The notes: generated by a model not told the origin, from the sequence alone. DNA of 61,148 nt from Alphaproteobacteria bacterium UBA3637 (GCA_002373615.1 DFKU01000050.1:1-61148), one strand, 5' to 3'; numbered from the stretch's first letter, positions 41,514 through 60,557 are shown. Made by a program: numbers and translations.

Positions 41514-41984
41514 TTATTTTTCCACAACTTCCCCGTTATCCAAGCCCCAAAGGCCAGAGCGGGGGAACCATCCTTTTTTGGTATGGTTTTCATCTGAGAC
41601 AGTAATTTTACAGTACCGACCCTGCGGGCATTCTTCCAGACGGGCAATTACCCCCGGTTGCACAATGGCCACAGGGTAAGATTCCGGATCATTCTTTTTT
41701 AAAAGAGACTCTTCCTTTTCCACAATCGCAAAGCGCGCTTTTTTCAGCATGTTTTGGTGTACCCATCCTACAGTACCTTCTTTATCACGCACTTGACGCC
41801 AAATTTCAAAGGTATCTAACACCTCCACTGGATAATTTTTTTCTTGATACACCCACAAAATCGGAAACCTTTCCCCAGGACCAGTCCGCATGTTGACTTT
41901 GTCATATTTCAAAGAGGCATACTCGGTTGCGTATCCCCCGAAAGACAAAAGCATAACAAATAAAAATACGCTCTTATTCATCAT
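41514..41984 (-). CDS. Secreted tandem SH3-like domain protein (alphaproteobacterial DUF1058/COG3807 type)
   Basis: The start MMNKSVFLFVMLLSFGGYA at 41984 is a signal peptide. ...VNMRTGPGERFPILWVYQEKNYPVEVL..WRQVRDKEGTVGWVH... is an SH3_3-like motif. Confidence 0.65.
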   Translation of the reverse strand: MMNKSVFLFVMLLSFGGYATEYASLKYDKVNMRTGPGERFPILWVYQEKNYPVEVLDTFEIWRQVRDKEGTVGWVHQNMLKKARFAIVEKEESLLKKNDPESYPVAIVQPGVIARLEECPQGRYCKITVSDENHTKKGWFPRSGLWGLDNGEVVEK

Positions 41985-42510
41985 CTTTTTTATACCTATC
42001 CCGAATCGAACGCGTCCCCCGTCTGGACGAGGGTTCCAGCGCTTTAAATTCATCCTCTTCTTCTGATTCATCCAATAAAATTTCATCTGTAGATGTTTTA
42101 TTGGTTTGAACCTGACGTTCAACCTCTTGCCACGCCACTTGTACGGCAGGAAAAATCACCAACTGCGCACATACAACTCCACGGTGTAAAACGTAATCAG
42201 ACGTAGAAGTATTACGTAAAAGGACAAACAAAGGCCCTCGTTCAGCCGGATGCAAAATACTGGGGGCATCCGATACAACGATCCCTTCTTTTCTGGCCAA
42301 TTTGGGCAAACTCACAACCTGACCACAATAACCATTGGGAATCCCTATAGCAAACCCCACAGGCACATAGGCACGTTCCCCCGGTTTCAATCTGACTGGG
42401 GCAGAAACCGCAGCTTGCAAAGTTAAAGCAATATGATCCTTGGATTCATAGCTGGGAAGAGGCAAACCTTCCCCATCTGACGTTCGACAAATGTAAAGTG
42501 TTGGTACCAT
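41974..42510 (-). CDS. dUTPase-fold protein with degenerate catalytic motifs
   Basis: Alignable by eye to Dut (PLPSYESKD..., ...GIVV..., ...VCAQLVIFP). Motifs I, II, III and V are replaced (IALTL, LPKLA, SILHPAERG, no GGFGS). The ATG at 42510 has RBS GGGGGA and lies 10 nt after the virB11 stop. Confidence 0.6.
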   Translation of the reverse strand: MVPTLYICRTSDGEGLPLPSYESKDHIALTLQAAVSAPVRLKPGERAYVPVGFAIGIPNGYCGQVVSLPKLARKEGIVVSDAPSILHPAERGPLFVLLRNTSTSDYVLHRGVVCAQLVIFPAVQVAWQEVERQVQTNKTSTDEILLDESEEEDEFKALEPSSRRGTRSIRDRYKKDDE

Positions 42511-42520
42511 TTTTCCCCCT

Positions 42521-43522
42521 TTAAGTAATTTCTGTAATTGCGCGAATATTCCCATTACGATTAATTTGAACAACGCGCAATTTATCCTTCATTTCTTTAA
42601 AAAGTTTTTCTTCTTCTGAACCAGAAAAACTTTGGTGATTACTTTCGGCAATACGCCCGATAAAAGCACGATAGGCTTCATTTGGGTCCGCTGCATGAAT
42701 AGTAGCAAAACAGTTTTCATGTCCCGAATTCATCAGCTTCCAAATGGCATTCGCATTCGTTGTGGAAATTTCCCCCCCCAAAATCGCATCCGGCGTAAAA
42801 CGTACCACCAAATCAATCACATTCGCATAAGTAAAAGTATTTGTGGCTTCAGTACGAGAAACAACCAAGTGAACATGATTCGGTTGCTTTACAATCAATT
42901 CGCGGGTATCTTCAATGGTAATGATACGCTTATGTTCATCCAATAACTTAATCATATTATTCAAAAAAGTCGTTTTACCTGTAGCCGTTGCCCCGCTGAT
43001 CAAGATATTATCCCCCCGCTGAATGGATAAAACCAGACGTTCATAGGGGTCATCAGGATCTTCCACATCTTTTAATCTATTCAGTTGACGTAACCGTCCC
43101 CCTTGTGTTAAACCGAATTGTTCCATACCAATATCCAGATCTTCACGATACACACGAATGGCCATGGCAATACCACCCGTCAAATCATCATTATCGTACA
43201 TAACGTTCCGACCCGCTATCCCAGAAAAACGATGTCCGCCGGGAAGTGCTGCAAACACCACAGGCACCCCACCAACAGGATCATAGGCTAAGTCATAGGT
43301 GTTAGCAATGATGTACATAATATCATTCAAATATTCACGAGTCAGTTTTGGATCTTCATAATAATGCCACGGATGAGCATGTTTTCCCCTGAGACGCAGC
43401 CATATTCCCCCCGGATTATCTATTGCCACTTCTTCCACATTATCTTGGGAATACCAATAGGAAAGCGGCCGAAGGGTCATTTCTAAAACTTTATAGGTAT
43501 CTGTGATTGAAAGGGTACTCAT
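42521..43522 (-). CDS. virB11: Type IV secretion ATPase VirB11
   Basis: Walker A GATATGKTT, Asp box IITIEDTREL, Walker B PDAILGGEI, His box GHENCFATIHA. Confidence 0.9.
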   Translation of the reverse strand: MSTLSITDTYKVLEMTLRPLSYWYSQDNVEEVAIDNPGGIWLRLRGKHAHPWHYYEDPKLTREYLNDIMYIIANTYDLAYDPVGGVPVVFAALPGGHRFSGIAGRNVMYDNDDLTGGIAMAIRVYREDLDIGMEQFGLTQGGRLRQLNRLKDVEDPDDPYERLVLSIQRGDNILISGATATGKTTFLNNMIKLLDEHKRIITIEDTRELIVKQPNHVHLVVSRTEATNTFTYANVIDLVVRFTPDAILGGEISTTNANAIWKLMNSGHENCFATIHAADPNEAYRAFIGRIAESNHQSFSGSEEEKLFKEMKDKLRVVQINRNGNIRAITEIT

Positions 43523-43531
43523 CGTTTTCCT

Positions 43532-46500
43532 TTAAAAAAGAGGTTTGTCTTCCAATGGTACCGGTGCCACTTTTCGATCTGAAATATCCGGCATACGATC
43601 AGTGCCATCATAAATGGGCGTTTCCATTTCTTGTTGATTATTGGAAGGGATATCGGTATTAGAGGAAGCTGGCATTTTTTCATCCTGTTCTGAACGACGT
43701 TGTTGCGTCCATGAATTTATTCCCTGAGGTGTCTTGGCTTGGTATTCCGAATCGTCCTCTTCTTTCGGAGGATTTTTGTCCATATAATCCGCATCATCTT
43801 CTGGGGTTCGCAACCATAAATCCTGAGAAGGGAAGACGGTTAACCGAGTTCCTGAAGGAACAAAAATGACAGGAGGTGTTTGCTGAGCTTTAGCAATCAT
43901 ATCATCCAAAATATCACCTATTTTTTCGATGAATTGCTTGCGCGCATCATTCATTGCTTGAGAACGTTGAGACATTGTTTGAGATTGCGTTTGTTGTCCT
44001 GTTTGCATATTTGTTTGAACAGTCACTTCTTCATTCGTCGCCATTAAATATGAAACCGCAGAACTTGCCAGTGTAGACAAAACGGATGTCCCATATTTAT
44101 TCCATAACTGTTCATCCAAGTAGGCAGCGACCCCACCGCGCCCTTGTGCGTCCCCTGAATTTGATCCAGACAGATCGAAAGCAGAACCATCAGGTCGAAT
44201 TAACCGATTCCAAGAAATCTGAAGCTTTGCAACCCCATTGACTGCATTTTCACCTTCACCCCCAAATGTTCCAATTAAACGACTTCCTGCGGGAATTAAG
44301 ATATTGCGTCCTTCTTCCCCATAAATGTTTGTTTCAACGATCGCAATTGCAGGCACATCCGAATACCTGGAATCGATAGAACGCGCCAAAACTGCCGGAA
44401 TCGCCTTCCCCTGCAGGACAACATGTGTCATATCAACCGGCCAAGTGGAAATGGATTTTCCACTCACCCCGGCCTTTGTCCAATCTTTATCTTTTTTAGG
44501 TTTCGCCATTTCTTTTATTTTTGCAGAAATTTTAAGCGTACCAGCCCCACGTTCCCTTTGCGTTTTCATACCTTGACGACGTTTGTTAATTTTATCCGTA
44601 AAATCATCAATCTGTGCTTGCGTTGGTTTAAATGGCGTATGAATATCGGGACGTTCTCTGTTCCCAGAAACAGGATCCGACATTACCTTGTTATCCCATG
44701 TATAAGGACGTCCATCATCCCCTAAATATCCAATAATCATTCCACTTTCATCGGTTATCGTCCCATCTGAATTAACCATATAGGTGTTTGACCCAATATT
44801 GATAGCACGCGCAGGCCTATTTGATTTTCCCATACCAGACATACCACATTGCTTTAACAGTACAGAAACATCGATACCGCGAAAACTTTCAACATAGTTT
44901 CCATCTGGCGTAAAAACTTGCCCATCAGGGGTTACTGTATAAATCAAATCCCCATTTTCATCCCGCAATGTTCCATCAGCCATCAATGAAGCAATCTTTT
45001 GACCATCATATCCAACTAAATCACACCCAGAAAGGTACCCCAGGCCAGGAACATACGAGGTATGAATATCTGGCAGAGAATTACCCCATGGATCTGTGAG
45101 TTGCCCCTTTGGTGGCACAACAAATATGGGTTCTCCATTGGTTCCTTTCACTATATCATCACCTCCTTGGATATATTTTACAACACCCTCAGAATCTGAA
45201 AAAATGGTATTTTGTCCACCAACATTTATCCCTATTTTGTTCCCATTCCAATCATAAGCCGTACCAGATTCATCCACTTGACCAATATTACTTTCCCCAT
45301 TATAAATACTCCCATCTGAACGGGTCCAACCGATAATATTACCTTTCTCATCAATAATTACACCGCGTTCAACAATCGTACATAATTTTTCCCCGTTTGG
45401 TGCCAACATCTCACCAGAATTTGTGGCACACCCGATTTCAACCCCATTCAAATCCACCACAGTTGAATCAGGGAGGGTTCTCCCCATCAGTTGCTTCCCC
45501 GAAATACAGGGTTCATTATTTCTGACAACACGTCCTATTTTGGAACCATTGGCATCCACTGCCCACATATCACGTCCAATCCGCCCCACAACGGAACCTT
45601 GACCATTGATCACACGACCGTCATAAGCCGTTTGACCAACAATTTTACAATCATTGACCACTAATCCTTCCGGAATTAAAAAACCTTGAATACGTAGTTC
45701 ATCAATTTCTGACTCTGCATCATTCAACCGAACAAGTCCTGCATTGTCCACGCGCCCATGAACCTCCCCTTGATAAGAGATAACAGTCCCATCATAAGAG
45801 GCAATGCCCATTACATCCCCATCATTACTAACAGCGGACATAATCGGGAAAACACGCGCCACAACAGGGGGCTTTTGACCTGATTTATTTACAACATAAG
45901 CATTATCTGTGATACGGAATAATTTTTTAGCAGCATTATCAACAACATCCCCCAGGATGGTTGTACGTCCCAAAACTTTAAAACCTTGATTAAGTCCGAT
46001 CGGAAGGCCTTGTTGAACTGTATGACCTGCATAAGGCATACTGTTAAAGACAGCTTTTTCAGGCACACCTGCTACCGATCCATCCGGTAAAACACGCCCC
46101 GCAAAAACATTTTTATCCCCAACTATGGTGCCATCCACCGTAGAAACAACCCCATAATACGTTCCAATATCATCTACAATTCCCCCATTTGGCATAGTAT
46201 TTCCCAGCCACATATTGTCTGTTGAAAGCGCTGATCTGAAAGCCATTTTATTTCCAATTTGAATCCCTGATTTATAAACAGCCGCTGTTCCAGAAGTCAC
46301 CCCTGCAAAACTCCCACGTTTGTCAATGAATACATTAGGAGCATAAATACCTCCCATTAATTCCCCATTCGGAGAATAAACCAAGCCCGTCCCCGTCACA
46401 ATAGCTGTTTTTTTACCCGCTTTATAAATTTGTCCATCAGAAGCAACTGTACCAATCATCCCCAAGGTGGGCGTGATCGCCGCCCCAGAAGAAACCATTC

Positions 46501-49500
46501 CTCCTGATAATTGATTTGAGGTATTGAAATAATAACGATTCATCATAACCGACCCAATTGTTTTATCTGATCCCAAAGAAACGACTGATCCTGTTTCAGA
46601 AACAATTCCCAATACGCGTCCTGATTCAATGCTGGAAACAAAAGGAGAAGGTGTTTTTTCAAGCCCTATAATCATCCCTTTACTGGCAACATAAGGGTCA
46701 AAACCTGTTTGGGAAATCCTTAAACCATTGGCCTCTAAAATTTCCCCTGACGCACCAATAAAACCAACAGATTTAGAGGCCTCATTAAATGCTGTTGTTC
46801 CAAGGGTTAAAAAACGTCCAATTATTTGACCATTCACGTCAAAAACATGTCCGTCCAAACCAACTGAGCCAAGAACTCTTGTCCCATTTTCAATTTTTCC
46901 ATCTGCACGCAACCATCCCATTAATTGCCCATTGGTGTCTATGGCAATTCCCGGCGTTAAGATCTGACCTATAATGGCACCATCAGCATCATACAAGAAA
47001 GAACTATTTCCTATAACCGCAATCTGTTCCCCTTTGCCGGAGAGAACCTCACCTTGCGAGCTAACAGTCCCCAAATATTCCCCCATTGCGTCCACAACAA
47101 CGGCAGAACTCACAATATTTCCCATGAAATTTTGGGAAAGATCCAACGCTTCACCTGATGGTAAAATCGTTCCCGACATACGTCCATCTGGCGCATTCAG
47201 TTCCCCGTGAAAATTTGTCCATCCCACCAATTTACCATTTTTATTAACAAACGGAGCCAGTGAAATTAAGGATCCTTTAATGGTATTATCTTGTCCCAAA
47301 ATCAAGCCAGTACCAGAAACAGTCCCAATAAAATTACCTCTTATATCATTGACTTGAAATTGATAAGCTAAATCATTTGCCATTCCCGATAATTTAGGTT
47401 CAATAGATCCCACGAAGCCTTGAACAGAAACACCCACCGAAATTGATGGTGCCACTTGACCCAATATTTGATTTTTATCAGAAATGGCCAAGCCATTTGT
47501 CAAAACCCGGCCAATTTTAATTTGCCGATTATCCAAAATTTCAGCACGATTATTTGCAAAACCAACATACTTTCCATCGCTGGACAAAACCGGACCAACA
47601 GGAACAACACCTCCGACCAATTGTCCTTCCATATCCGTCACAGAACCATTTGCATGAATCGTATAATTTCCCATAGCATCTGGACCAATCAAAATCCCAT
47701 TTGCATTCAATGTTCCCAAAAAAGAACCATCTAATTTTATAAAAGTAGAACCTTCCGGAATTAATCTTCCGATAATATCTGTTCCTGTCTGATTGATGAC
47801 TGTAAAGCCCGGTAAAACACGACCTAATTGTCCCCCTGATTTATCTTTTAAGCTGCCTGTCAGTTGATTGTATTGACCCAAAATTTTACCGCTATCTGAA
47901 AACACTGTCCCAGAAAAGGGAACAACCCCTTTTAATTGACCTTTATCCCCAATAACCCAACCATTGAAATAAACATCCCCTAACCAATTTCCATTTTCAT
48001 CATAGGCTTTATTGCCAACAGAAGTCCCCCCCAAGGGATAACCATTTTCATCAACTATGACGCCCCTTGTATTTTGACTTAAAACTTGCAATTTTTTTTC
48101 ATAAACACACCCAATGATTTGGCCTTTATTATCCATAATCTGGCCATCCAAACGAACACGCCCAATCACTTGATTTTGTGCATTGATATAAAGCCCAAGC
48201 GGCGTCACTTCCCCGCTGATATCTCCTTGTAAATTTTGAACAGTCTTGTCTGGATTGACACATCCATTTTTTACTCCCTCCGTTGATACGACATCACCAT
48301 TCATAGAAATGAGCCCCAATAAACGGCAGCCTTCAGCTATGGCTGTTCCCCAAGGAACAATAGCCCCTATTTGTCTTTTTTTATCATCAACTGCTCTTCC
48401 ATCTGGCGTTATATGTCCCAGTTTTTTTAAAGATAAATTCACAACACTGCCATCTGGATAGACGGAGCCTGTATGAGTGCATCCCCCTGAGGTAATTAGA
48501 CCTTCAGGCATCAAAGACCCCACAAACGTTCTGTGTGCAAAAGCCGTTCCATCTGGATTCATAATACCAATTTGTGTCGCTTTAAAATTCAAGGCTTTTC
48601 CTTCAGAATTCACAAAGCCAATAGGAGTCCCCTCCTCATCAATGATAATACCTTCACGAATCACAGAACCCAATTCATTCATCTGATTATCGACAATGGA
48701 TCTATCCAATAAAACATGACCAACAGTTTGATCAAAAGAATCTTTCACCTCACCATTTAACTTTACTTCACCCAAGGAACGGCCACCGGCACCAACCCCA
48801 ACACCACGCGGCACAACACCACCAACCAATTCCCCTTTATCATTAATGGCAAACCCCATAGGACGCATAAAGGCTATTTTTACTTTTGACTCATTGACGA
48901 CAGAACCATCCGGCATAATAAGGCCTACGTAATTCCCCATGGAATCGATCACTGCCCCCCAAGGAGCAACAAAACCAATAGCATTTTTATTAGCATCAAT
49001 AACTTGGCCATCTACCCGCGGATATCCCATCACCTTTCCTTTGGCATCCACATATACAGCAATACCATTATTGACAACAAATTTTCCAAACACATTCCCT
49101 TGTTCATTCATGGCTGGCATTGCATAAATTGCCTTACCAACAATTTTAAAAGTTGTGGGATCAATAATCGTGTTATCGTTCAATAAACGTCCCACAACTT
49201 TTCCTTCGGGATTGACCACATCCCCATTTTTGGCAATATCCCCCATCAATTCATTTTTTAGATCCAAAGGAACTTTTTTAGGTTCTGTGATTCCTATAAT
49301 TTCACCGGTTTCTTTATTCTTTATCAAGCCTTCCGGTGTTTTTTCAGCATCCGGATTATTGGGGTCAACGGGTTTTCCATCAGGCCCCAATCCTTCTTCT
49401 GGACGAGCTTGCGCTTTTTCTTTTTCTTCACAACAAATCACACAATCTTTGGAATCTGTTGATTGTGCTTTCAGCATCACTGTTGTACGTTCTTTTCTGA

Positions 49501-52681: not shown

Positions 52682-52753
52682 ACAAAACCCTCCTTTTTTA
52701 ATATTTCCGCCTTAAATCCTAGCACAGAAAATAAAAAATAGCTAATCTTTTTT

Positions 52754-53386: not shown

Positions 53387-53400
53387 GGTACTCTCTTTCT

Positions 53401-54960
53401 TTAGAATTGACAATTTGCCAACAACGGCATATTTTCACGTTGTTTATCCATAACGGAATTAATTTGCTGATATGATTCCGCTATAATTTTATCCGTTGAC
53501 TTTTTTTCCCGCATCAACTGATCCACATTGATCGCATTGGTTTGCGTCAAATAGACTGAAGCTCCTTCATCTTTTTCCAGTGCCATCAAAGCAAGACGTT
53601 GTTGAACTGTTGGCGACATTTGAGAAACATGCAGTGTCTCTGACATATCAGCTGTGGCAGTTTGAGCTTCTGCTGACAAACGTGCGCGTTTTTGTGATTT
53701 CAATCGTTCACGACGTGCCACATAATCTGGATTTTCTTTGTCTTGTTTTTCTAATTGTTCTGTGTATTTATATGCTTCTTCAATAGCTTTTTTCTTCAAT
53801 TCTTTCAACTGTTTTTGAACACGCACATAATGTCCACGATTAGAAATATCAAAATCTGTTGTGTCTATTCCCAATTCATTCAACTTTTCAATAAATGGTT
53901 GAACCATTTTTTGTTGAGCTGCGGCAGTTCCTAGACTTCCTTTATCCATTGCATCAACCACCAAAGTTATTTCATATTCATTTTCTAAATCACTTTTTTG
54001 GCCAACTTTAGCTTCAACCGTTGGGGTCATACTTTTCCCAACAAACGCCTTTGACATTTCTCCGCCATCTGTATAATTTTTAAATTTATCATTTGACATT
54101 TTTTTCCATGGTTCCGGCAGCTCTGGAATTACATTTCCCGTCAAGGGATCAATTCGCACAATATCCTTCCAGTTAGGAAGTGCTTTGGGTGCTTTTGGCG
54201 GATTACCGCTCACCGCTGTTGGATTTGTTGGACGACGCCCCTGGCTGATTTCAGCGACATATGCTTTATGTGCTGATAAAACTGTATTATATTTTGCCGC
54301 ATTATGACGCGTTTCTTCATCCACTGCAGGGCGTCCCTTTAAAGGAGCACCGTATGCCACATTCAAATTTTCATAAAATTGATTCCATTCCTTTTCAAAC
54401 AAAGAAATTTGATCTTGCCATAAAGGAAATGATTCGCCAGAATTAACTTTTCCCCATTTTTCAGGGTTCGCATACACATCCATCATAATATCACGATTGA
54501 TTGTCCAACCGGCCATTTCATTTTGTTGGCGTTGTCGCAAGGACATTGTCAATTTATCTTGATTTTGATTTTCAATTTCCTTTTGTGAAACTTGACGTTT
54601 CTGCTCATAAGTAGCCATCATTTTTGACCAAACTTCTTCTGGGTTTTTAAAGACCTTCCCTAATTTTTTGACGTTGCAAGAGGTGATATTCTTTTGCATT
54701 TCTTTAAAAAGTTCCCCTTGTTTTTTCAAATTTGCAGAAGTTTGAGCCGTATCACGCAACCCAGGCATTTCATTCATTAAATTATGAATTAAAAATGCTT
54801 TTTCTAAAGCTTCATTTTCATCTGTTAAATATGTTGTAACTTGTATAGATTGAGGCTGAGGAGCACGGCTGGCACGCAAAGTAATACTGGCCATTGAAGG
54901 AAAAGAAATCAATCCAGCCAACATTAAACAAACACCTAAAGAAATCGTTTTTTTATACAT
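53401..54960 (-). CDS. Secreted coiled-coil protein (519 aa), T4SS-operon associated
   Basis: Signal peptide MYKKTISLGVCLMLAGLISFPSMA. Lys/Glu/Gln-rich helical regions. I see no VirB motif. Confidence 0.55.
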   Translation of the reverse strand: MYKKTISLGVCLMLAGLISFPSMASITLRASRAPQPQSIQVTTYLTDENEALEKAFLIHNLMNEMPGLRDTAQTSANLKKQGELFKEMQKNITSCNVKKLGKVFKNPEEVWSKMMATYEQKRQVSQKEIENQNQDKLTMSLRQRQQNEMAGWTINRDIMMDVYANPEKWGKVNSGESFPLWQDQISLFEKEWNQFYENLNVAYGAPLKGRPAVDEETRHNAAKYNTVLSAHKAYVAEISQGRRPTNPTAVSGNPPKAPKALPNWKDIVRIDPLTGNVIPELPEPWKKMSNDKFKNYTDGGEMSKAFVGKSMTPTVEAKVGQKSDLENEYEITLVVDAMDKGSLGTAAAQQKMVQPFIEKLNELGIDTTDFDISNRGHYVRVQKQLKELKKKAIEEAYKYTEQLEKQDKENPDYVARRERLKSQKRARLSAEAQTATADMSETLHVSQMSPTVQQRLALMALEKDEGASVYLTQTNAINVDQLMREKKSTDKIIAESYQQINSVMDKQRENMPLLANCQF

Positions 54961-54968
54961 CTTCCCCC

Positions 54969-55805
54969 CTATTTATTTTTATCATCACCCAAACCATAGT
55001 TTTCAATTTCTGACGGTGTATTATTTTCACCGGCAGCGTTTTGAGGTGTCATTGGCTCAGGCCCTGATTGTAAAGCAGATTCATCGATTATTGCTTGCGT
55101 TGGAATTTTTGTTGTATCTATATCAGCTTCCATTGTTTCTGCACGAGCACGAACACGCGCAGCGATAACACGCTTACGTAATACCATCAAAGCATCCAAG
55201 ATCAAACGACGTGTCGCAACTGTACTGGCCGCATCGCTATAATCAGTATAACTGCCAGAAGAAACCTTCTCTGCAATGGCAGCCAATTCTGCATATGTCT
55301 TTTTCATGACCAAAGCGTCCGTCATGGCCTGAATAGCACGTTGCTGTGCACGATATTCAATCGCCCATTTATCTGCAGACAATTCATCCAAAGATGCCTG
55401 TCCTTTCATGATTTCCCTTGTTCTTAAATCTGCCAATTTCCCAATAGAGGTTTCTTGAATTTTAATATCTGATGGATAGGCGCCAAATTCCGCAGGAATA
55501 TCCGTCACGGATGAAGCAACTGCATTTAATACAAGTTTAGTTGAAATAGAACCTTTGTCACCAGTATAAGCTCCACCACAGCCACCTGAACGACCCTGTT
55601 CCCCTTCAAAAACCAATTTGGCTGTCAACTTCTGGTCATCTGTAAGAAAGTATTTAACAGCTGTAGATAACCCACGTCCGATGGCTCCAAATACATCAAA
55701 ACTGAGATAAGAAAACCGTTGTGCACAAACACCCGCCGCTTGAGCCCGAAACGTTCCTAAGATTAATCCCAATGAAATTAAAGCGATAAAAAATGTCTTT
55801 TTCAT
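54969..55805 (-). CDS. Secreted helical protein (278 aa), T4SS-operon associated (VirB5/TrbJ-like size and architecture)
   Basis: Signal peptide MKKTFFIALISLGLILGTFRAQA and a helical C-terminal half. Confidence 0.5.
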   Translation of the reverse strand: MKKTFFIALISLGLILGTFRAQAAGVCAQRFSYLSFDVFGAIGRGLSTAVKYFLTDDQKLTAKLVFEGEQGRSGGCGGAYTGDKGSISTKLVLNAVASSVTDIPAEFGAYPSDIKIQETSIGKLADLRTREIMKGQASLDELSADKWAIEYRAQQRAIQAMTDALVMKKTYAELAAIAEKVSSGSYTDYSDAASTVATRRLILDALMVLRKRVIAARVRARAETMEADIDTTKIPTQAIIDESALQSGPEPMTPQNAAGENNTPSEIENYGLGDDKNK

Positions 55806-55807
55806 AT

Positions 55808-56659
55808 CTATTTCCTTTCTGCACTGGTCGGTTTTGCTTCATTCATTAATTCAATAGGTTGACCGGATAAGAAATGAATTGCATCTGCCTCCATCATTTC
55901 AATTTGTAAAGCCAAGTCCACCAATGCCATTTTTACCATTTGTTCCAATGTATGGGCATCCACTGCAATAGATCCCAATTCCCCATCCCCTGACACAGCC
56001 GCAGAAGAAATACTTTCCAAATCATTTTGGATATACCCTTTGACACGATATCCCAACGAGATATGGCGACCCGCTGCTTCTTGAGTATACTTATTTCTTT
56101 GAGCACGAATTTTATTTTTATACTCTGTCGTTTTTTGTTCGGATTTTGTTGGGTCGGCAAAAAATTCCGTTTTTACTGCTGTTCTTATATTTGCACGGAC
56201 AGTTTCATTGTTTTTAGCAGAAGCAAGAGCCGTTTTTAAGGGCGAATATCCCACATTTCCTTCATTTGCCAAAATTTCCGCATTCACATAATCAAAGGCA
56301 GAACCAGAAAATTCAGAACCCGCAACTGAACCGGGGTTTAATTGTTCAGTGGTTGTATTCGTTGTTGCCGCAGATCCCCCCGCGCCACAGGCCTTTTGAT
56401 TATCCTCTTCCTGAGTAGCAATTAATTGGGCTTTAGATTCCCCATCCCCTGTTAAGGAAATAATGCCGGCAATAAGCCCTGTAATACTACGCACACTGTC
56501 TGTCGTCACATAAGGTTCTATCGGTACTGCTACAGCACCACACAAAGGAGTTTCACATGGACATTTAGCACTATATCCATTAGGAAGAAATGCCATTACC
56601 TCCTTGACCAAAAAAACACATCCTGCAAACGTTCCCAATAAAATCAGACTTTTTTTCAT
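55808..56659 (-). CDS. Secreted protein (283 aa), T4SS-operon associated
   Basis: The ATG at 56659 has RBS GGAGG. Signal peptide MKKSLILLGTFAGCVFLVKEVMA. Helical C-terminus ...LEQMVKMALVDLALQIEMMEAD. Confidence 0.5.
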   Translation of the reverse strand: MKKSLILLGTFAGCVFLVKEVMAFLPNGYSAKCPCETPLCGAVAVPIEPYVTTDSVRSITGLIAGIISLTGDGESKAQLIATQEEDNQKACGAGGSAATTNTTTEQLNPGSVAGSEFSGSAFDYVNAEILANEGNVGYSPLKTALASAKNNETVRANIRTAVKTEFFADPTKSEQKTTEYKNKIRAQRNKYTQEAAGRHISLGYRVKGYIQNDLESISSAAVSGDGELGSIAVDAHTLEQMVKMALVDLALQIEMMEADAIHFLSGQPIELMNEAKPTSAERK

Positions 56660-56660
56660 C

Positions 56661-57509
56661 TTATTCCTCCGTTTCATCAGACCCATCTATCAAAACAGGT
56701 CCTGTTTCGTTGATAATGCGCAGCCCTGACGCTTCCAAATCGCGCCCCATCAAGGCATTGACATCATTGATTTGACGATGCGTATCTAACACAATATCTG
56801 CCATACGATTATACAGTCCCGTCGGCGAGGTTTGTTTGTTGAAATTTTCAGCCAATTTTTCAAAGTGCTTCTCCAGAGATAGCGTTTCTTTATCGGTTGT
56901 TTTGGTATTTTCTTTTGATTTTTCATCTTCTGATTCTTCTGCGGTGGTTTGACTGTCTTTGGCATCTTGTTTAGCAGACATATTTAAAACCTTATCGGCC
57001 GTTGCAGAAGCCAAAGTAACCGATGCCAACAACCATTCATTTTGACGTTGCGTTGCACAACTTTTATCATCCAAATCGCAGTCCCCTTTTATCGCTGCAT
57101 CGGGTGTTTCAAATAAATATTCTTGTACAGCTTGACGCGTATTTTCAAATATTTTCTCATCAGAAACCTTTGTCAATTCTATTTGAGCTATCACCTGATC
57201 TGCGGTATACACAGTTGCCAATGATGAATCCCCAGAAGTTCCAGAGCTCCCCGAAGATCCTCCCCCTGAGCCCCCACCTAAAGCTTTCTCTAATTGTTTA
57301 ATGGCTTCACCGGCTTTGACGGTACGCTCCCCCAATTTTTCGCTGGTAACCCATGCATCCGCTCCTGTCGCTAGGGTCATTGCAGGGTCAATCCAGGCAT
57401 GCCAAAGCCAAGGAAAAGTTAAATTTTGGTTTCCTATGATAGGGAAGGAAAAAGCAGGCAAAGAAATAACCGCCACAATACCAGCCAAAACAATATTTGA
57501 TTTTTTCAT
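56661..57509 (-). CDS. Secreted protein (282 aa), T4SS-operon associated
   Basis: The ATG at 57509 lies 8 nt after AAGGAGG. Signal peptide MKKSNIVLAGIVAVISLPAFS, a Gly/Ser linker and acidic helical regions. Confidence 0.5.
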   Translation of the reverse strand: MKKSNIVLAGIVAVISLPAFSFPIIGNQNLTFPWLWHAWIDPAMTLATGADAWVTSEKLGERTVKAGEAIKQLEKALGGGSGGGSSGSSGTSGDSSLATVYTADQVIAQIELTKVSDEKIFENTRQAVQEYLFETPDAAIKGDCDLDDKSCATQRQNEWLLASVTLASATADKVLNMSAKQDAKDSQTTAEESEDEKSKENTKTTDKETLSLEKHFEKLAENFNKQTSPTGLYNRMADIVLDTHRQINDVNALMGRDLEASGLRIINETGPVLIDGSDETEE

Positions 57510-57522
57510 TATCATTGCCTCC

Positions 57523-58581
57523 TTAATCTGTTAACTCTGCTGTATCAGGGATTGCTCTGGCCGCTTCAATTGTTAGAACGGATCCTTGTAACATATTCCC
57601 TTGATTCAGGCGTTGCGCCAATTCCAAATTCATCATAGCCACAATTTTCATGGCCGCCACAGTATTCACCCCGGTTCCAATTATGGTACTCAAATCTTGA
57701 ACAGCGATTTTATTGGCTTCCCCATTTGTTGCAACTGCTATTAATTTTTTTCTTGTTTTGTCTCTTTCATCCTCTGACAAAGAGCTACTTTCATCATCTT
57801 CCATGGCTTGCTGCACAGATTTCAGACCCAATTCCGCATGGGCAATACCCGCCGTACCATAATTTTGTTCATTTTGTATTTGGCGTATAGCAACTTGGTC
57901 GCGTTCTTCTGAAGTCATGCTGTCATATTTTGAACAAACAGAATATTTTGCAGCACATGACCCTGCCCCCGGTATTTCATCGGAATCTTCCGTTGTTGAA
58001 GAAGCATTACTTTTTGATTGTAACCATTCCAAATCTTCTAAAATCTTTTCACGTGTTTCATCTGTGACAATTTCAGTCACCAAGGTTCCGACCCCAACGG
58101 CTTCGATCCCTACATTTTTAAGAGCCGCTGCCTGAAAAGGTAATTTTTGAAACATTGAATCATATTTGGTTCCGCCAGGACTCCCCTTATTTCCCGCACC
58201 ATTACTTTTGGCCGCCTTTTGATATTCATCCTGAGGTTTTGGTTTCCATTTTGTTGTCACATCTTTCATCGAATTTAAAACCATATATTCTGCTGTCAGT
58301 TGCGCGGGATCTATGTTGATAGCGGGAACATGTGGGGTTCCGATAGAAACGTAATATTCAGGAGGCTTAACGAACGAAATAACTGCCCCCAAAGCTCCCA
58401 AAGCAATTCCCGCATAGGGGCTGATGGTTGAAGCAGCCGTTCCTGCCGCTGTTTGGGCAACACCACCGGCAATCATACCCAGCGTACCGGTCTGACCAAA
58501 GGCTGTTGTCGAAATAATGGTACCAGCCATCAGCCCAACCATTAACGTTTCTTTGAATATATTCATACAAGATCTTTTCAT
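57523..58581 (-). CDS. Secreted/membrane-associated protein (352 aa), T4SS-operon associated
   Basis: RBS AAGGAGG. N-terminal signal-like segment, then a Gly/Ala-rich hydrophobic stretch (GMIAGGVAQTAAGTAAST...GIALGALGAVISFV). Helical C-terminus. Confidence 0.5.
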   Translation of the reverse strand: MKRSCMNIFKETLMVGLMAGTIISTTAFGQTGTLGMIAGGVAQTAAGTAASTISPYAGIALGALGAVISFVKPPEYYVSIGTPHVPAINIDPAQLTAEYMVLNSMKDVTTKWKPKPQDEYQKAAKSNGAGNKGSPGGTKYDSMFQKLPFQAAALKNVGIEAVGVGTLVTEIVTDETREKILEDLEWLQSKSNASSTTEDSDEIPGAGSCAAKYSVCSKYDSMTSEERDQVAIRQIQNEQNYGTAGIAHAELGLKSVQQAMEDDESSSLSEDERDKTRKKLIAVATNGEANKIAVQDLSTIIGTGVNTVAAMKIVAMMNLELAQRLNQGNMLQGSVLTIEAARAIPDTAELTD

Positions 58582-58592
58582 GTTCAGCCTCC

Positions 58593-60557
58593 TTATTGTG
58601 ATTCCCCCGGACGAATTGTAATACTTGGCGCCGGAGAACTGGGTTCGCTTGGGGTTGTTGTTTTTTCATCAATCGCATTTAAATTGACCGCCCCTTGCAA
58701 TCCTAATTGAACTGCTGATAAGGCCGCCCCGCGTGTGATTTCAAATAAAACAAGACGATCTGCATCCGTGATTGCACTGATGCCACCTAAACTGCCTTGA
58801 GCCCCATCAACTGCATCTTTAAACGCTTGTGCCCGATCATAGAATGTAGATGATATTGCATTTGATCCTTCCCCAATTTGGGTGGCAGCTGTCGCCCATT
58901 CTCCCAACAGTAAGGCTCTGCGTTTTCTGATTTCTTTTTGTTCATTTGTTGTTAATACATCCGCTGAGGGGGTGGAGGTCACTTGACCGGTCCCCGCTGA
59001 TTGCCCCCCTGAGGTTCCGGCAGACATAGAAATCGCAGGCGTCGATGTATTTTCTTTTGGTTTTTCTATATCTTTTGACAACAAGCTGATGTCAATTTTC
59101 CCCATATTTAACAAAGCAATTAAAGAATTTGCCGCCCCCGAAATCGTTGTGGCAGAAATAGGAGTATCGGGTTGCACCGTAGATGCCCCGGAAATAGGGG
59201 TACCTTGAGATTCACCCATAGGCTCTGCTCCTACTATTCTGACTTTTTTGGTGGCATCATCATGTTTATTGCCTTCCACAGCCTCCATAATAATCAAAAC
59301 GTACTGTGGCACATTGGATACACTGACGGGCGCCCAAAGACTTCCGGGCTCGGGAACTCCGCCAGCCCCACCTTCTCCACCTTCTGACGCATTTGGTTTT
59401 ATAGGCGTATCGGATTTTGCCTCTGGTGTATCTCCCATCGGTTGCAAATCTTTTGCTGGCACGGTTTGAGGTCCTGATTCACCTTGGATAGTCACATTAC
59501 CTTTGCCATCTGTACCTATCACCTGGACCGCAGTTCCATCATAACGAACCATATCCCCAACCTGTGGGTTCATAGGTGCTGTTGATGGAGTTGTTGCACC
59601 AGCTAAATCAGTTGAGTTTGAGGGAAAACGAGCCTGTGAAACATCATATTCATTAGCTACTCCACTACCGTCCGCATATCGAAAAGTCCCATCTGACATT
59701 TTATTGATAGTTGTTCCGTATTCTGTTGTCTTTGTATCCACAACAGTGGGAACAGTGGAACCACCAGCGGTACTACCAGCAGAGGCAGAAGTGGATGAAG
59801 CAGGAGCACCAGTCGGCTGCCAACCTTTTTCACTCCCCAAGTACACCAGCGTTTCATCAGTAGTATACTCACCAATTTCTGGAGACGAAGGAGTTGTTGT
59901 GGCTGAACCGCCACCAGCGCCAGCAGCAGAGGCAGGTGCAGAAGTGGATGAAGCAGGAGCGCCAGTCGGCTGCCAACCTTTTTCACTCCCCAAGTACACC
60001 TGCGTTCCATCAGTAGTATACTCACCAATTTCTGGAAACGAAGGAGTTGTTGTGGCTGAACCGGCAGTAGGGGTAGAGGCAGGTATAGGAGCGGGTGAAG
60101 TTTTTGTGGCTACATAACCAGGATCAGGAGCCCTATCAGCAAACGTACCACCACCAACAGCAGGGGTAGATGTAGTAGTGGATGAAGTAGTTGTGGCTGA
60201 ACCGGTCGTGCTAGTAGTAGTGGTAGCAGCAGTAGAGGCGGGCGCAGAAGTGGATGAAGCAACTGCAGCAGAACTCGCTTGTTGTGTTGTCATCCCTTGT
60301 GGCACTTGCCCCCAGTTTTTTCCATACCAAACAAAGTCAGTCGATTGGTTTCCTGAACTCACGGTTACCACTTGACCAACATGATCCCCACTAAAAGACG
60401 GCGCAGAAGGAGTGTTGACCTGAATTCCTCTAATACGAGCATTCGTCTCAGTTACAAAAGGATTTCCACTATAACCAGGAATGGGCGTTGCTCCATATCC
60501 AGCCCCAGACACCAACACTGTTCCCAACAATAAAACTTTTAAGAGATTTTTATGCAT
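58593..60557 (-). CDS. Secreted Ser/Thr/Ala-rich (mucin-like) protein with small beta modules, first gene of the T4SS operon
   Basis: The real start is the ATG at 60557 (RBS AAGGGGGA), with signal peptide MHKNLLKVLLLGTVLVSGAGYG. The upstream 'MPRQARHD...' extension in the ORF track is MITE sequence. Repeated IGEYTTD.T.VYLGSEKGWQPTG modules are separated by STA-rich linkers. Confidence 0.65.
   Translation of the reverse strand: MHKNLLKVLLLGTVLVSGAGYGATPIPGYSGNPFVTETNARIRGIQVNTPSAPSFSGDHVGQVVTVSSGNQSTDFVWYGKNWGQVPQGMTTQQASSAAVASSTSAPASTAATTTTSTTGSATTTSSTTTSTPAVGGGTFADRAPDPGYVATKTSPAPIPASTPTAGSATTTPSFPEIGEYTTDGTQVYLGSEKGWQPTGAPASSTSAPASAAGAGGGSATTTPSSPEIGEYTTDETLVYLGSEKGWQPTGAPASSTSASAGSTAGGSTVPTVVDTKTTEYGTTINKMSDGTFRYADGSGVANEYDVSQARFPSNSTDLAGATTPSTAPMNPQVGDMVRYDGTAVQVIGTDGKGNVTIQGESGPQTVPAKDLQPMGDTPEAKSDTPIKPNASEGGEGGAGGVPEPGSLWAPVSVSNVPQYVLIIMEAVEGNKHDDATKKVRIVGAEPMGESQGTPISGASTVQPDTPISATTISGAANSLIALLNMGKIDISLLSKDIEKPKENTSTPAISMSAGTSGGQSAGTGQVTSTPSADVLTTNEQKEIRKRRALLLGEWATAATQIGEGSNAISSTFYDRAQAFKDAVDGAQGSLGGISAITDADRLVLFEITRGAALSAVQLGLQGAVNLNAIDEKTTTPSEPSSPAPSITIRPGESQ
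59785..60063. repeat. 153-bp (51-codon) tandem direct repeat, about 1.8 copies, inside 58593..60557
   Basis: GCAGAAGTGGATGAAGCAGGAGC[A/G]CCAGTCGGCTGCCAACCTTTTTCACTCCCCAAGTACACC... recurs with offset 153 (59785 vs 59938). Confidence 0.8.

What the first reader, a model, noticed from the sequence alone, without database searches (positions are those of the whole stretch)
41514..60557. 19-kb single-strand operon: partial rvh-like T4SS with many non-canonical additions
All genes from 60557 down to 41514 lie on the minus strand. Gaps are tiny or the genes overlap, and RBSs are strong.

- **Recognisable parts.** virB8-II, virB7-like, virB8-I, virB9, virB10 and virB11. As I recall, this duplicated-virB8-around-virB7 order is the hallmark of the Rickettsiales vir homolog system.
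- **Missing from the window.** virB2-B6 and virD4. In rvh systems these are encoded elsewhere.
- **Non-canonical additions.** Six upstream secreted proteins, a 6.5-kb virB10, a SPOR-fused virB9, and a dead dUTPase plus an SH3 protein in place of virD4.

Taken together, this is a strongly remodelled envelope-spanning machine.
Basis: partly seen in the sequence, partly recalled or inferred. Interest (0 to 1): 0.75.

Follow-up and report, generated by a model that had tools for sequence, protein, structure and literature searches.

The report
Expanded type IV secretion operon, gut Alphaproteobacteria
This is a real 19-kb operon encoding the outer half of a type IV secretion machine, found only in uncultured gut and rumen Alphaproteobacteria, with a giant 2,163-residue VirB10 made of about 90 beta-hairpin repeats; it shares a gene order with the Rickettsia system but fails three of that system's defining features.

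Summary
Fourteen minus-strand genes run from 60557 to 41514, separated by gaps of 1-72 bp or an 11-bp overlap, and a terminator lies at 41367-41347.

**Confirmed parts**
- Two VirB8 paralogs flank a 58-aa lipoprotein in the VirB7 position.
- VirB9 carries a C-terminal SPOR-like domain.
- VirB10 is 2,163 aa: one transmembrane helix, about 1,550 aa of 17-residue beta-flower hairpins, then a TrbI domain.
- VirB11 is present, followed by a dUTPase-like protein that has lost its catalytic motifs and an SH3 protein.

- At least two of the six "non-canonical" upstream proteins, g03 and g04, are VirB5-family paralogs (hhalign 91-96%).
- Both VirB8 copies keep the NPxG motif.
- The closest annotated relatives I could search are canonical conjugative plasmid systems of free-living Alphaproteobacteria.
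- So rvh membership is not supported; only the B8-B7-B8-B9-B10-B11 order matches.

**Distribution**
The core from g03 to VirB11 is syntenic in about 22 species of gut and rumen Alphaproteobacteria genomes assembled from metagenomes.

**Unresolved**
- VirB2, B3, B4, B6 and D4 appear in no locus I could reach.
- Whether they exist elsewhere in these genomes is open.
- The function is also open.

I rate this a new variant of a known kind, an "expanded" type IV secretion system (T4SS).

The parts
58593..60557 (-). g01: secreted 654-aa protein rich in Ser/Thr/Ala. It contains a 153-bp tandem duplication and has a weakly VirB5-like C-terminal helical domain.
   Evidence: Signal-peptide-like N-terminus. 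Tandem repeat at 59785-60063. No Pfam hit. Its C-terminus (residues 530-628) aligns with the VirB5 family at only 22% probability. Orthologs were found only in the nearer subclade and vary from 533 to 973 aa.
57523..58581 (-). g02: secreted 352-aa protein with a Gly/Ala-rich hydrophobic segment after the signal peptide.
   Evidence: Found only in the nearer subclade. Weak C-terminal similarity to g03 (26% probability). No similarity to VirB2 or VirB3.
56661..57509 (-). g03: secreted VirB5-family paralog (282 aa).
   Evidence: The family profile A6 against the VirB5 family A10 gives hhalign probability 90.6%, E = 1.3e-6, over 216 columns. A10 is anchored to Pfam PF07996. g03 is conserved in both subclades.
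55808..56659 (-). g04: secreted VirB5-family paralog (283 aa), possibly a lipoprotein (FAGC).
   Evidence: A4 against A10 gives probability 96.3%, E = 1.7e-9, over 124 columns. g03 against g04 gives 89%. The AlphaFold2 C-terminal helical hairpin is confident but has no PDB fold match. Extra paralogs occur in relatives.
54969..55805 (-). g05: secreted 278-aa helical protein of unknown family.
   Evidence: Conserved across both subclades. No match to PDB or Pfam. Similarity to VirB5 is not shown (8.9%).
53401..54960 (-). g06: secreted 519-aa all-alpha protein. It is specific to this clade and is the best conserved of the upstream genes.
   Evidence: Only 39 homologs were found among 5.8 billion proteins, all 340-535 aa. 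Cys95 and Cys517 are invariant. The AlphaFold2 model has pLDDT 83.7 and shows long helices. No PDB match by fold or sequence. It is always immediately upstream of VirB8-II.
52754..53386 (-). VirB8-II: a divergent VirB8 paralog that retains the NPYG motif.
   Evidence: It forms its own clade in the tree (76% bootstrap). In L028 it travels with the upstream genes but without B7-B11.
52505..52681 (-). VirB7-like 58-aa lipoprotein.
   Evidence: Lipobox LVAC. It is 68-81% identical across the clade. It is homologous (E = 1.7e-16) to the 58-aa ORF in the VirB7 position of the Microvirga plasmid T4SS.
51777..52487 (-). VirB8-I: a canonical VirB8 with the NPLG motif.
   Evidence: PF04335. Its profile matches Bartonella and Brucella VirB8, TrwG and TraE structures.
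50034..51707 (-). VirB9 (CagX domain) with a linker and a C-terminal SPOR-like domain (about residues 480-561).
   Evidence: It is 57-84% identical across the clade. Precomputed SPOR hits also occur in relatives.
43532..50023 (-). Giant VirB10 (2,163 aa). Its layout is: cytoplasmic N-terminus; transmembrane helix at 18-36; a charged region at 61-250; about 90 beta-hairpin units of 17 aa (beta-flower repeats, about residues 250-1800); a TrbI domain at 1869-2071; and an acidic, Pro-rich tail.
   Evidence: Orthologs are 2,085-2,406 aa, or are split into two ORFs in a sister lineage.
42521..43522 (-). VirB11 ATPase (Walker A motif GATATGKT).
   Evidence: It is 64-97% identical among the 120 best clade homologs listed.
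41974..42510 (-). Catalytically dead dUTPase-like protein (178 aa from the ATG at 42510). It is cytoplasmic and has a conserved acidic-then-Arg/Lys-rich C-terminal tail.
   Evidence: Alignment to solved dUTPases shows motif I D->T, motif II RS->LP, motif III ID.DY->LH.AE, motif IV R->V, and motif V absent. The same substitutions occur in orthologs 52-80% identical. It is present only in some sublineages.
41514..41984 (-). Secreted SH3_4-domain protein (156 aa).
   Evidence: PF06347, E = 1.9e-15. It co-occurs with the dUTPase-like gene.
41347..41367 (.). Two-way terminator-like hairpin that closes the operon.

Best explanation
The operon encodes the envelope-spanning half of a chromosomal, vertically inherited VirB-like (P-type) type IV secretion system specific to a clade of uncultured gut and rumen Alphaproteobacteria. 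It is an independently expanded variant, not a demonstrated member of the Rickettsiales rvh family.

**Shown**
- A VirB7 lipoprotein, VirB9 and VirB10 are present. [quoted passage not shown]
- There are two VirB8 paralogs and a VirB11 ATPase.
- At least two Sec-exported VirB5-family paralogs (g03, g04) are present.
- Four further secreted proteins, g01, g02, g05 and g06, have no known relatives.

**Inferred**
- VirB7, VirB9 and the VirB10 C-terminus form the outer-membrane channel.
- The SPOR domain of VirB9, and perhaps the SH3 protein, tie the machine to peptidoglycan.
- The roughly 1,550-residue beta-flower hairpin array of VirB10 lies between its inner-membrane helix and the outer-membrane domain. 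It builds a very large periplasmic scaffold, analogous to the repeat regions of CagY and DotG.
- The VirB5 paralogs, together with g01, g02, g05 and g06, are assembled with the help of VirB8-II into a stalk, tip or surface adhesin. g01 and g02 would be the variable, exposed parts.
- The inner-membrane half (VirB3, VirB4, VirB6, and possibly VirB2 and VirD4) must be encoded elsewhere in the genome.
- No relaxase or coupling protein lies nearby, and the locus sits in different chromosomal neighbourhoods in different species. The likely use is therefore contact, adhesion or effector delivery to other cells, not conjugation.
For: **Core identities.**

**Relatives with a known architecture.** The B7, B8, B9, B10 and B11 proteins are homologous to a canonical plasmid system in Microvirga, whose order is B2-B3-B4-B5-x-x-B7-B8-B9-B10-B11-D4. 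E-values are 1.7e-16 for B7 and 1e-82 for B11.

**VirB5 assignment.** The Erythrobacter member of family A10 passes Pfam PF07996 (30.3 bits against a cut-off of 24.7). g04 against A10 gives 96.3% and g03 against A10 gives 90.6%.

**Conservation**
- The block from g03 to the giant B10 is syntenic in about 22 species from yak, sheep, roe deer and human gut, with VirB11 following wherever the fetched DNA reaches that far.
- Identity falls in the order B11 > B9 > B7 > B10, roughly equal to g06 and the B8s, > g03-g05 > g01 and g02. This pattern fits a conserved machine with variable exposed parts.
- The listed VirB11 homologs are 64-97% identical among 1,065 hits, which argues for a working ATPase.

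**Other support**
- The locus sits in different chromosomal neighbourhoods, with no relaxase or integrase-linked element.
- In L028, the upstream secreted genes, g06 and VirB8-II occur as a unit without B7-B11. This is the same boundary as the operon break reported in R. typhi.
- A sister lineage, L076, carries a TrbL/VirB6 gene 8.7 kb downstream of VirB11.
- Expanded T4SSs with species-specific components and a repeat-bearing VirB10 are an established category (PMC9371333).
Against: **Missing genes.** VirB2, VirB3, VirB4, VirB6 and VirD4 were found nowhere I could look:
- not in the window;
- not in about 80 kb of the 94.7-kb source contig;
- not in the flanks (up to 10 kb each side) of any related locus;
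- not in a metagenome scan seeded with VirB4 from the closest plasmids, which returned only complete canonical systems.

**Unsupported roles.** The roles proposed for g01, g02, g05, g06 and the beta-flower array rest on position, signal peptides and analogy. The g06 and g04 models have no structural match in the PDB.

**Topology.** The location of the VirB10 repeat array is inferred from a single predicted transmembrane helix.

**Phylogeny.** No tree including Rickettsiales sequences could be built, so a specific relationship to rvh is not excluded.
Confidence: 0.65

Rival explanations
1. It is a true member of the Rickettsiales vir homolog (rvh) family. On this view the VirB8 duplication around VirB7 is inherited from the rvh ancestor, the other islets (B3-B4-B6, B2, D4) are scattered in the genome, and the machine delivers effectors to eukaryotic or bacterial cells.
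For: - The order B8-II, B7, B8-I, B9, B10, B11 is identical to that of R. typhi.
- The operon is split from B2-B6, as in rvh.
- The B8-II clade is long-branched and its position relative to B8-I and plasmid VirB8 is unresolved, so an old duplication is possible.
- Basal, free-living Rickettsiales also carry rvh.
Against: - VirB5-family genes are present, whereas 'no VirB5 analog' is an rvh hallmark.
- Both B8 paralogs keep NPxG, whereas RvhB8-II lacks it.
- Neither B8 profile matches 4O3V.
- There is no VirB9 copy upstream of B8-II and no VirD4 after B11.
- The paralogs are 30% identical, against 16-18% in Rickettsiales.
Confidence: 0.15
2. It is a T4SS-derived envelope organelle that works without VirB4, VirB6 and VirD4. 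The core complex, the giant VirB10 and the secreted VirB5-like proteins would form an adhesion or contact structure powered only by VirB11. Alternatively it is a decaying relic.
For: - VirB4, B6 and D4 appear in no accessible sequence.
- The remodelling is very heavy: a giant B10, a SPOR fusion and clade-specific proteins.
Against: - VirB4 is the universal component of known T4SSs (established knowledge).
- All 14 ORFs are intact, and conservation across about 22 species is strong, which rules out a relic.
- A sister lineage has TrbL/VirB6 near the operon.
- Only a small part of any genome was visible to me.
Confidence: 0.1
3. It is a toxin exporter of the Ptl type. The upstream Sec-dependent proteins would be the cargo, assembled in the periplasm and pushed out through the VirB7/9/10 channel, as the ptx genes precede the ptl genes in Bordetella.
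For: - Six signal-peptide proteins are encoded directly upstream in the same operon.
- No coupling protein is nearby.
- Ptl also lacks VirD4 (established knowledge).
Against: - g03 and g04 belong to the VirB5 family, which is a structural component.
- g06 is as conserved as the VirB8 proteins.
- No toxin or enzyme domain was detected.
- The predicted folds are long helical bundles.
Confidence: 0.07
4. It is the transfer apparatus of an integrated conjugative element.
For: The closest annotated relatives are conjugative-type plasmid T4SSs that carry MobA/MobL and VirD4.
Against: - No relaxase, VirD4 or integrase is in the window or in the flanks of the operon on the source contig. Two relatives (L003, L035) have a phage-integrase-family gene several kb upstream, among LptD and SurA housekeeping genes.
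- The locus is present in about 22 species with housekeeping neighbours.
- GC content is like the rest of the window.
Confidence: 0.03

Closest known systems
Rickettsiales vir homolog (rvh) T4SS
   Same: - The gene order B8-II, B7, B8-I, B9, B10, B11 is the same.
- VirB8 is duplicated.
- The operon is separated from B2-B6.
- It is chromosomal and specific to one lineage.
   Different: - VirB5-family genes are present.
- Both VirB8 copies keep NPxG.
- There is a single VirB9 in the locus and no VirD4 after VirB11.
- VirB10 is giant and VirB9 carries a SPOR domain.
- The host is a gut Alphaproteobacterium with glycogen metabolism genes nearby.
- Duplication of B4 and B6 could not be tested.
Canonical VirB/Trb-like conjugative T4SS of alphaproteobacterial plasmids (Microvirga sp. 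VF16 pMVF16-3; Erythrobacter aureus plasmid)
   Same: - The B7 (58 aa), B8, B9, B10, B11 and VirB5 proteins are homologous.
- The order B7-B8-B9-B10-B11 is the same.
- VirB11 is 38-41% identical.
   Different: - Those systems carry B2, B3, B4, a VirD4 and a MobA/MobL relaxase.
- They have one VirB8 and a VirB10 of 530-590 aa.
- Pfam reported no SPOR domain on the Microvirga VirB9.
Expanded T4SSs: Helicobacter pylori Cag (CagY) and Legionella Dot/Icm (DotG)
   Same: - The VirB10 homolog is enlarged by a long internal repeat region.
- The core is surrounded by species-specific secreted components with no relatives elsewhere.
   Different: - The repeat type differs: 17-residue beta-flower hairpins here, against CagY repeats or DotG pentapeptide repeats.
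- The accessory proteins are unrelated.
- The Cag and Dot/Icm loci include VirB4 and VirD4 homologs.
Bartonella Trw T4SS
   Same: - No coupling protein is present.
- VirB5-type surface components are multiplied.
- The best PDB sequence match of VirB8-II is TrwG (E = 2.7e-8).
   Different: - Trw also amplifies VirB2, VirB6 and VirB7 and keeps VirB4 in the locus.
- Trw has no giant VirB10.
Bordetella Ptl system
   Same: Sec-exported proteins are encoded upstream of the T4SS genes in one operon, and there is no VirD4.
   Different: - The upstream proteins here include VirB5 homologs and show no toxin domains.
- Ptl keeps the B2, B3-B4 and B6 homologs in the operon.

Membership tests
VirB-like (P-type) type IV secretion system | Outer-membrane core proteins VirB7 (small lipoprotein), VirB9 and VirB10 (TrbI domain) | tested here: met
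VirB-like (P-type) type IV secretion system | VirB8 and the VirB11 ATPase | tested here: met
VirB-like (P-type) type IV secretion system | VirB5-family protein | tested here: met
   g03 and g04 match a family anchored to PF07996 by profile-profile comparison.
VirB-like (P-type) type IV secretion system | VirB4 ATPase, the universal T4SS marker, with VirB3 and VirB6 | tested here: inconclusive
   Absent from the window, from about 80 kb of the source contig and from all fetched flanks. The VirB4-seeded metagenome scan found no partner locus. A sister lineage has TrbL/VirB6 nearby.
Rickettsiales rvh T4SS | VirB8 duplicated, with the order B8-II, B7, B8-I, B9, B10, B11 | tested here: met
Rickettsiales rvh T4SS | No VirB5 analog | tested here: not met
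Rickettsiales rvh T4SS | The B8-II paralog lacks the NPxG motif and has an altered dimer interface | tested here: not met
   NPYG is invariant in 20 B8-II orthologs. No match to 4O3V. Literature.
Rickettsiales rvh T4SS | VirB9 duplicated (a copy upstream of B8-II) and VirD4 following VirB11 | tested here: not met
   g06, an all-alpha protein, occupies the position upstream of B8-II. No VirD4 lies downstream in any of five lineages. A second VirB9 elsewhere in the genome was not testable.
Rickettsiales rvh T4SS | VirB4 duplicated and VirB6 in multiple copies | not testable with these tools
   Needs the whole genomes.
Rickettsiales rvh T4SS | The host belongs to the Rickettsiales, or the proteins fall in the rvh clade | not tested
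   Records are titled only 'Alphaproteobacteria bacterium'. No Rickettsiales sequences were available for a tree.
Expanded T4SS (as defined in PMC9371333) | Clearly more components than the 12 of VirB/VirD4, with enlarged VirB9 and VirB10 homologs and species-specific parts | tested here: met
   VirB10 is 2,163 aa, VirB9 is 557 aa, there are two VirB8 copies, and at least four clade-specific secreted proteins.
Beta-flower fold (Pfam clan CL0395) | Short beta-hairpin repeats with a [DNEQ]xxG tip motif that match PF21784 or PF21785 | tested here: met
   Bflower_2, E = 6e-48, in 6 stretches. Spacing of 17, 34 and 51 residues between G..hG motifs. Fold described in PMC10584680. No 3-D model was made of this region.
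Trimeric dUTPase | Five catalytic motifs, including the Asp of motif III and the C-terminal motif V | tested here: not met
   The fold-level similarity is retained (NF001862, 83.9 bits, below the cut-off of 103).

The most novel reading that the evidence does not exclude
The clade has no VirB4, VirB6 or VirD4 at all. The operon would then encode a self-standing organelle derived from a T4SS: a VirB7/9/10 channel with a megadalton beta-flower cage, anchored to peptidoglycan, that displays VirB5-like adhesins and is driven only by VirB11. This would be the first T4SS descendant known to have dispensed with the otherwise universal VirB4 ATPase.
Probability: 0.08. Interest if true: 0.9.

Novelty: new variant of a known kind. 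Interest (0 to 1): 0.6.

Why it matters
**What is new**
- These gut and rumen Alphaproteobacteria are uncultured and little studied.
- A large, strongly conserved secretion machine is a concrete clue that they interact physically with other cells: bacteria, protists or host epithelium.
- The operon adds a third, independent example of an expanded T4SS built around a repeat-inflated VirB10, after Cag and Dot/Icm. This one uses the recently described beta-flower fold, for which no function is known.
- I found no paper linking beta-flower repeats or a SPOR domain to a T4SS.

**Wider consequences**
- The B8-B7-B8 order, regarded as part of a Rickettsiales signature, also occurs in a system that otherwise fails the rvh definition. 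This matters for anyone using gene order to call rvh in genomes assembled from metagenomes.
- The conserved dead dUTPase-like protein has an Arg/Lys-rich tail and sits next to VirB11 in several lineages. It is a cheap candidate to test as a substrate or regulator.

Tried and rejected
1. **Fold and sequence searches for the upstream proteins.**
   - The g06 model (pLDDT 83.7) and the g04 model (pLDDT 66.5) gave no PDB fold match at E <= 0.001.
   - The g04, g05 and g06 profiles gave no meaningful PDB sequence match.
2. **VirB2 or VirB3 among g01-g06.** hhalign probabilities were at most 1.6%.
3. **g05 or g06 as VirB5, or as the Microvirga 428-aa protein.** Not supported.
4. **Finding VirB4, B6 or D4.**
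   - Pfam on the rest of the window found nothing.
   - Both flanks of the source contig were negative.
   - The large ORFs of the clade loci fetched up to that point gave only PheT (L028) and an ABC ATPase (L032) as Walker-A candidates.
   - A metagenome scan with a VirB4 alignment from the closest plasmids returned 32 loci, all complete canonical systems unrelated to the clade.
   - The 814-aa protein after VirB11 in L076 is a low-complexity acidic protein with no Walker A motif, not VirB4.
5. **Timing of the VirB8 duplication.** A neighbour-joining tree of B8-I, B8-II and plasmid VirB8 recovers the three clades but not their order (43% support).
6. **Taxonomy finer than 'Alphaproteobacteria bacterium'.** Not obtainable. 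Papers on gut Rs-D84/Enterousia do not mention secretion systems or these genomes.
7. **Promoter scan.** Not above the shuffled expectation, so uninformative.
9. **Mid-length (1,400-1,530 aa) VirB10 representatives as a distinct class.** Rejected. They are the C-terminal ORF of a VirB10 split into two genes.

Full report
**1. What is in the sequence**

Between 60557 and 41514 there are 14 consecutive ORFs on the minus strand. Using the starts that public gene calls also use, the gaps are 11, 13, 1, 2, 8, 14, 72, 17, 69, 10, 9 and 10 bp, with one 11-bp overlap. Eleven of the 14 starts have an AAGG/GGAGG-type motif in the 25 nt upstream. A stem-loop followed by a T-run at 41367-41347 lies between the last gene and the convergent U32-peptidase gene. 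The gene upstream is uvrA. The promoter scan is not above the shuffled background. The operon call therefore rests on spacing and on conservation, not on promoter evidence.

**2. Source and distribution**

The window is part of a 94,752-bp metagenomic contig. Close homologs of its DnaK and VirB11 carry the label "Alphaproteobacteria bacterium".

The 519-aa protein g06 has only 39 homologs among 5.8 billion clustered proteins. A scan of one genome per species with the g06 alignment found 23 loci, all in metagenome-assembled genomes. Where an isolate or contig name shows a source, it is yak, sheep or roe deer gut, or human gut.

In these loci the block from g03 through the giant B10 recurs wherever the contig is long enough, in the order g03, g04, g05, g06, VirB8-II, the 58-aa lipoprotein, VirB8-I, VirB9 and the giant VirB10. 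VirB11 follows wherever the fetched DNA reaches it.
- g01 and g02 were detected only in the nearer subclade.
- The more distant subclade has other secreted proteins in their place, including an extra g04 paralog.
- The flanking genes differ between lineages and are housekeeping genes: uvrA and htpG, ligA, folD-surA-lptD, lptFG, dnaJK, alaS-recA and rpsA.

This pattern points to a chromosomal, inherited system rather than a mobile element.

**3. The recognisable T4SS parts**

- **VirB11, VirB10, VirB9 and VirB8-I.** These are identified by Pfam and NCBIfam.
- **VirB8-II.** It has no Pfam hit alone. It is 30% identical to VirB8-I (E = 7e-9), and its family profile matches TrwG, TraE and VirB8 crystal structures (best E = 2.7e-8).
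- **The 58-aa ORF.** It has a lipobox and is 68-81% identical across the clade.
- **Closest plasmid relatives.** A tblastn search of VirB11 against plasmids gave Microvirga sp. VF16 pMVF16-3 (41%), an Erythrobacter aureus plasmid (38%), Sphingosinicella, and plasmids of Ca. Paracaedimonas (34-35%).
- **Architecture of those relatives.** The first two, which were examined in detail, are canonical systems linked to MobA/MobL. Their order is B2, B3, B4, a B5-like gene, one or two unnamed genes, a small ORF (58 and 68 aa), B8, B9, B10, B11 and, soon after, D4.
- **Matches to the Microvirga proteins.** The window proteins match with E = 1.7e-16 (58-aa lipoprotein), 1.3e-16 (B8-I), 8e-6 (B8-II), 4.7e-57 (B9), 1.5e-43 (B10) and 1e-82 (B11).

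The small lipoprotein is therefore the VirB7 of this T4SS lineage, and the core is an ordinary VirB-like one by descent.

**4. The unusual features of the core**

- **VirB10** has one predicted transmembrane helix at residues 18-36, a charged segment, and then a Gly/Val/Ile-rich region of about 1,550 residues. The recurring G..hG motifs in this region are spaced 17, 34 or 51 residues apart. Pfam assigns the region to the five-fold beta-flower family (E = 6e-48, six stretches) and places the TrbI domain at 1869-2071. The beta-flower fold was described in 2023 from AlphaFold models and has no assigned function (PMC10584680).
- **Relatives of the giant VirB10.** A full HMMER search of 1.84 billion representative proteins with residues 965-2163 returned 111 representatives at E <= 1e-30. 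Sixteen of them are 2,085-2,406 aa long. A group of about 1,400-1,530 aa turned out, in both cases examined, to be the second ORF of a VirB10 split into two genes (1,103 + 1,534 aa and 1,306 + 1,407 aa).
- **VirB9** is 557 aa. Its last 80 or so residues match the SPOR domain at 19-20 bits, just under the cut-off of 21, but all 18 orthologs do so (best E = 2.8e-5). This segment is the most conserved part of the C-terminus.
- **Literature.** I found no paper linking SPOR with VirB9, and none of the listed beta-flower papers deals with secretion systems.

**5. The six upstream proteins**

- All have a hydrophobic N-terminus of signal-peptide type and no further strong membrane segment. g02 is the exception, with a Gly/Ala-rich stretch.
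- None has a Pfam hit.
- BLAST finds no paralogy among them, but profile comparison links the C-termini of g03 and g04 (89%).
- The protein in the VirB5 position of the plasmid relatives forms a family of 13 aligned sequences (A10). Its Erythrobacter member passes Pfam PF07996, the VirB5/TrbJ family (30.3 bits against 24.7).
- Against A10, the g04 family scores 96.3% (E = 1.7e-9, 124 columns) and the g03 family 90.6% (E = 1.3e-6, 216 columns, nearly full length).
- A narrower g04 alignment gives 56%. g05 gives 8.9%. The C-terminus of g01 gives 22%.

I conclude that g03 and g04 are VirB5-family paralogs and that the others are unassigned.

g06 is predicted with good confidence (pLDDT 83.7) as an all-helical protein with two invariant cysteines. 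It has no structural or sequence relative in the PDB. The g04 model is confident only in a C-terminal helical hairpin and finds nothing in the PDB.

Identity to the window falls in the order B11 > B9 > B7 > B10, roughly equal to g06 and the B8s, > g03-g05 > g01 and g02. g01 also has a recent 153-bp tandem duplication and varies from 533 to 973 aa. This is what is expected of exposed, fast-evolving parts.

**6. The tail of the operon**

The dUTPase-like protein aligns with solved dUTPases (best E = 9e-23). The alignment shows motif I Asp replaced by Thr, motif II Arg-Ser by Leu-Pro, the motif III ID.DY by LH.AE, motif IV Arg by Val, and no motif V.

It is therefore a conserved pseudo-enzyme.

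This protein and the SH3_4 protein follow VirB11 in the window and in two other lineages. They are absent in two further lineages, where the operon stops at VirB11. They are accessory genes, not a fixed substitute for VirD4.

**7. What is missing**

No VirB1, B2, B3, B4, B6, D4 or relaxase occurs in any of the following:
- the window;
- the about 80 kb of the source contig that I could see;
- the flanks (up to 10 kb each side) of the related loci.

A metagenome scan seeded with VirB4 from the three closest plasmids found 32 loci. Every one long enough to judge was a canonical system with its own B8-B10 (and B11 or D4 where covered), so none is a split partner locus. In a sister lineage (L076; its VirB11 matches ours at E = 4e-146) a TrbL/VirB6 gene lies 8.7 kb downstream on the same strand. 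This is weak support for the idea that the rest exists elsewhere. Whole genomes were out of reach, so the point stays open.

**8. Comparison with rvh**

According to PMC4676284:
- the R. typhi order is rvhB9-I, rvhB8-II, rvhB7, rvhB8-I, rvhB9-II, rvhB10, rvhB11, rvhD4;
- an operon break lies between rvhB8-II and rvhB7;
- RvhB8-II lacks NPxG;
- the two paralogs are 16-18% identical.

According to PMC11077975, the hallmarks are duplication of B4, B8 and B9, multicopy B6, and no VirB5 analog.

What agrees here:
- The order from B8-II to B11 agrees.
- The widest gaps in the operon (72 and 69 bp) include the B8-II/B7 junction.
- One relative, L028, carries the secreted genes, g06 and B8-II without B7-B11.

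What disagrees here:
- VirB5 homologs are present.
- Both B8 copies keep NPxG.
- Neither profile reaches the RvhB8-II structure.
- There is one VirB9 and no VirD4.

A small neighbour-joining tree separates B8-II (76%), B8-I (95%) and plasmid VirB8 (100%) but does not order them. I therefore do not file the locus under rvh. The shared order may be convergence or an old shared state, and only a tree that includes Rickettsiales sequences can tell.

**9. How it most likely works**

Shown:
- the parts list given above;
- its conservation across species.

Inferred from established T4SS architecture (PMC9371333):
- VirB7, VirB9 and the VirB10 C-terminus form the outer-membrane core.
- VirB8 proteins act in assembly.
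- VirB5 sits on the stalk or pilus tip.
- VirB11 is a cytoplasmic ATPase.

My reading is an expanded T4SS:
- The VirB10 hairpin array fills the periplasm as a scaffold.
- VirB9-SPOR, and in some lineages the SH3 protein, hold the machine to peptidoglycan.
- A set of VirB5-like and clade-specific secreted proteins, tied to VirB8-II, forms the distal or exposed part.
- The nearest functional analogies are Cag and Dot/Icm for the inflated core.
- Bartonella Trw is the analogy for multiplied VirB5-type surface parts without a coupling protein.

The target is unknown. It could be bacteria, protists or host cells.

**10. Verdict**

This is not an ordinary plasmid T4SS, nor a demonstrable rvh system, but a new variant of the expanded-T4SS kind in a poorly known gut lineage. 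Interest is moderate to high.

Noticed in passing
L028:5190-12357: In one more distant relative, five secreted proteins, a g06-like protein (623 aa) and a VirB8-II-like gene form a unit that ends at a convergent pheT. VirB7-B11 are not next to it. This suggests that the upstream genes plus VirB8-II are a separable module.
   Followed up: partly
window 41974-42510; L032:11002-11535; L074:10962-11570: The dead dUTPase-like protein keeps a conserved C-terminal tail: acidic residues, then an Arg/Lys-rich stretch (SSRRGTRSIRDRYKK). From my own knowledge, this resembles the positively charged C-terminal signals of VirB/D4 substrates. It could be a substrate or a regulator.
   Followed up: partly
L076:1056-8975; L077:856-9001: In a sister lineage the giant VirB10 is split into two adjacent ORFs (1,103 + 1,534 aa and 1,306 + 1,407 aa). 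In L076, VirB11 is followed by an 814-aa acidic low-complexity protein that contains a run of 11 lysines, and further on by a TrbL/VirB6 gene.
   Followed up: partly
window 14460-41342 compared with L032:11992-13089: In a close relative the T4SS operon abuts dnaJ-dnaK directly. In the window, about 27 kb lie between them. This stretch holds glgB and glgX, a tRNA-Glu (26065-26140), a low-GC (32-36%) cluster of six or more glycosyltransferases at about 27-34.7 kb, an EndA-like DNase, a NUDIX protein, a HAD phosphatase and a U32 peptidase. It is probably an insertion or rearrangement that includes a surface-polysaccharide island.
   Followed up: no
window 35014-36027 (-): A 337-aa protein has a phage T7 tail-fibre N-terminal domain (PF03906, E = 3e-8), but no other phage genes are nearby.
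   Followed up: no
window 59785-60063: A 153-bp tandem duplication (1.8 copies, 96% identical) lies inside g01. It duplicates a 51-residue Ser/Thr-rich unit. The length of g01 varies from 533 to 973 aa among relatives.
   Followed up: partly
window 44001-50000: GC skew is very strong and negative (-0.26 to -0.30) across virB10, stronger than in the rest of the operon (about -0.09 to -0.20). The likely cause is the many glycine codons of the hairpin repeats on the coding strand.
   Followed up: no
window 39054-41342 (+): A 762-aa U32-family protein has an N-terminal half resembling TrhP and UbiU. The long C-terminal extension carries DUF3656 according to precomputed annotations.
   Followed up: no
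L025, L028 (record titles): Two of the genomes carrying this alphaproteobacterial operon are titled 'uncultured Lactobacillales bacterium'. This is probably a mislabelled or contaminated bin.
   Followed up: no
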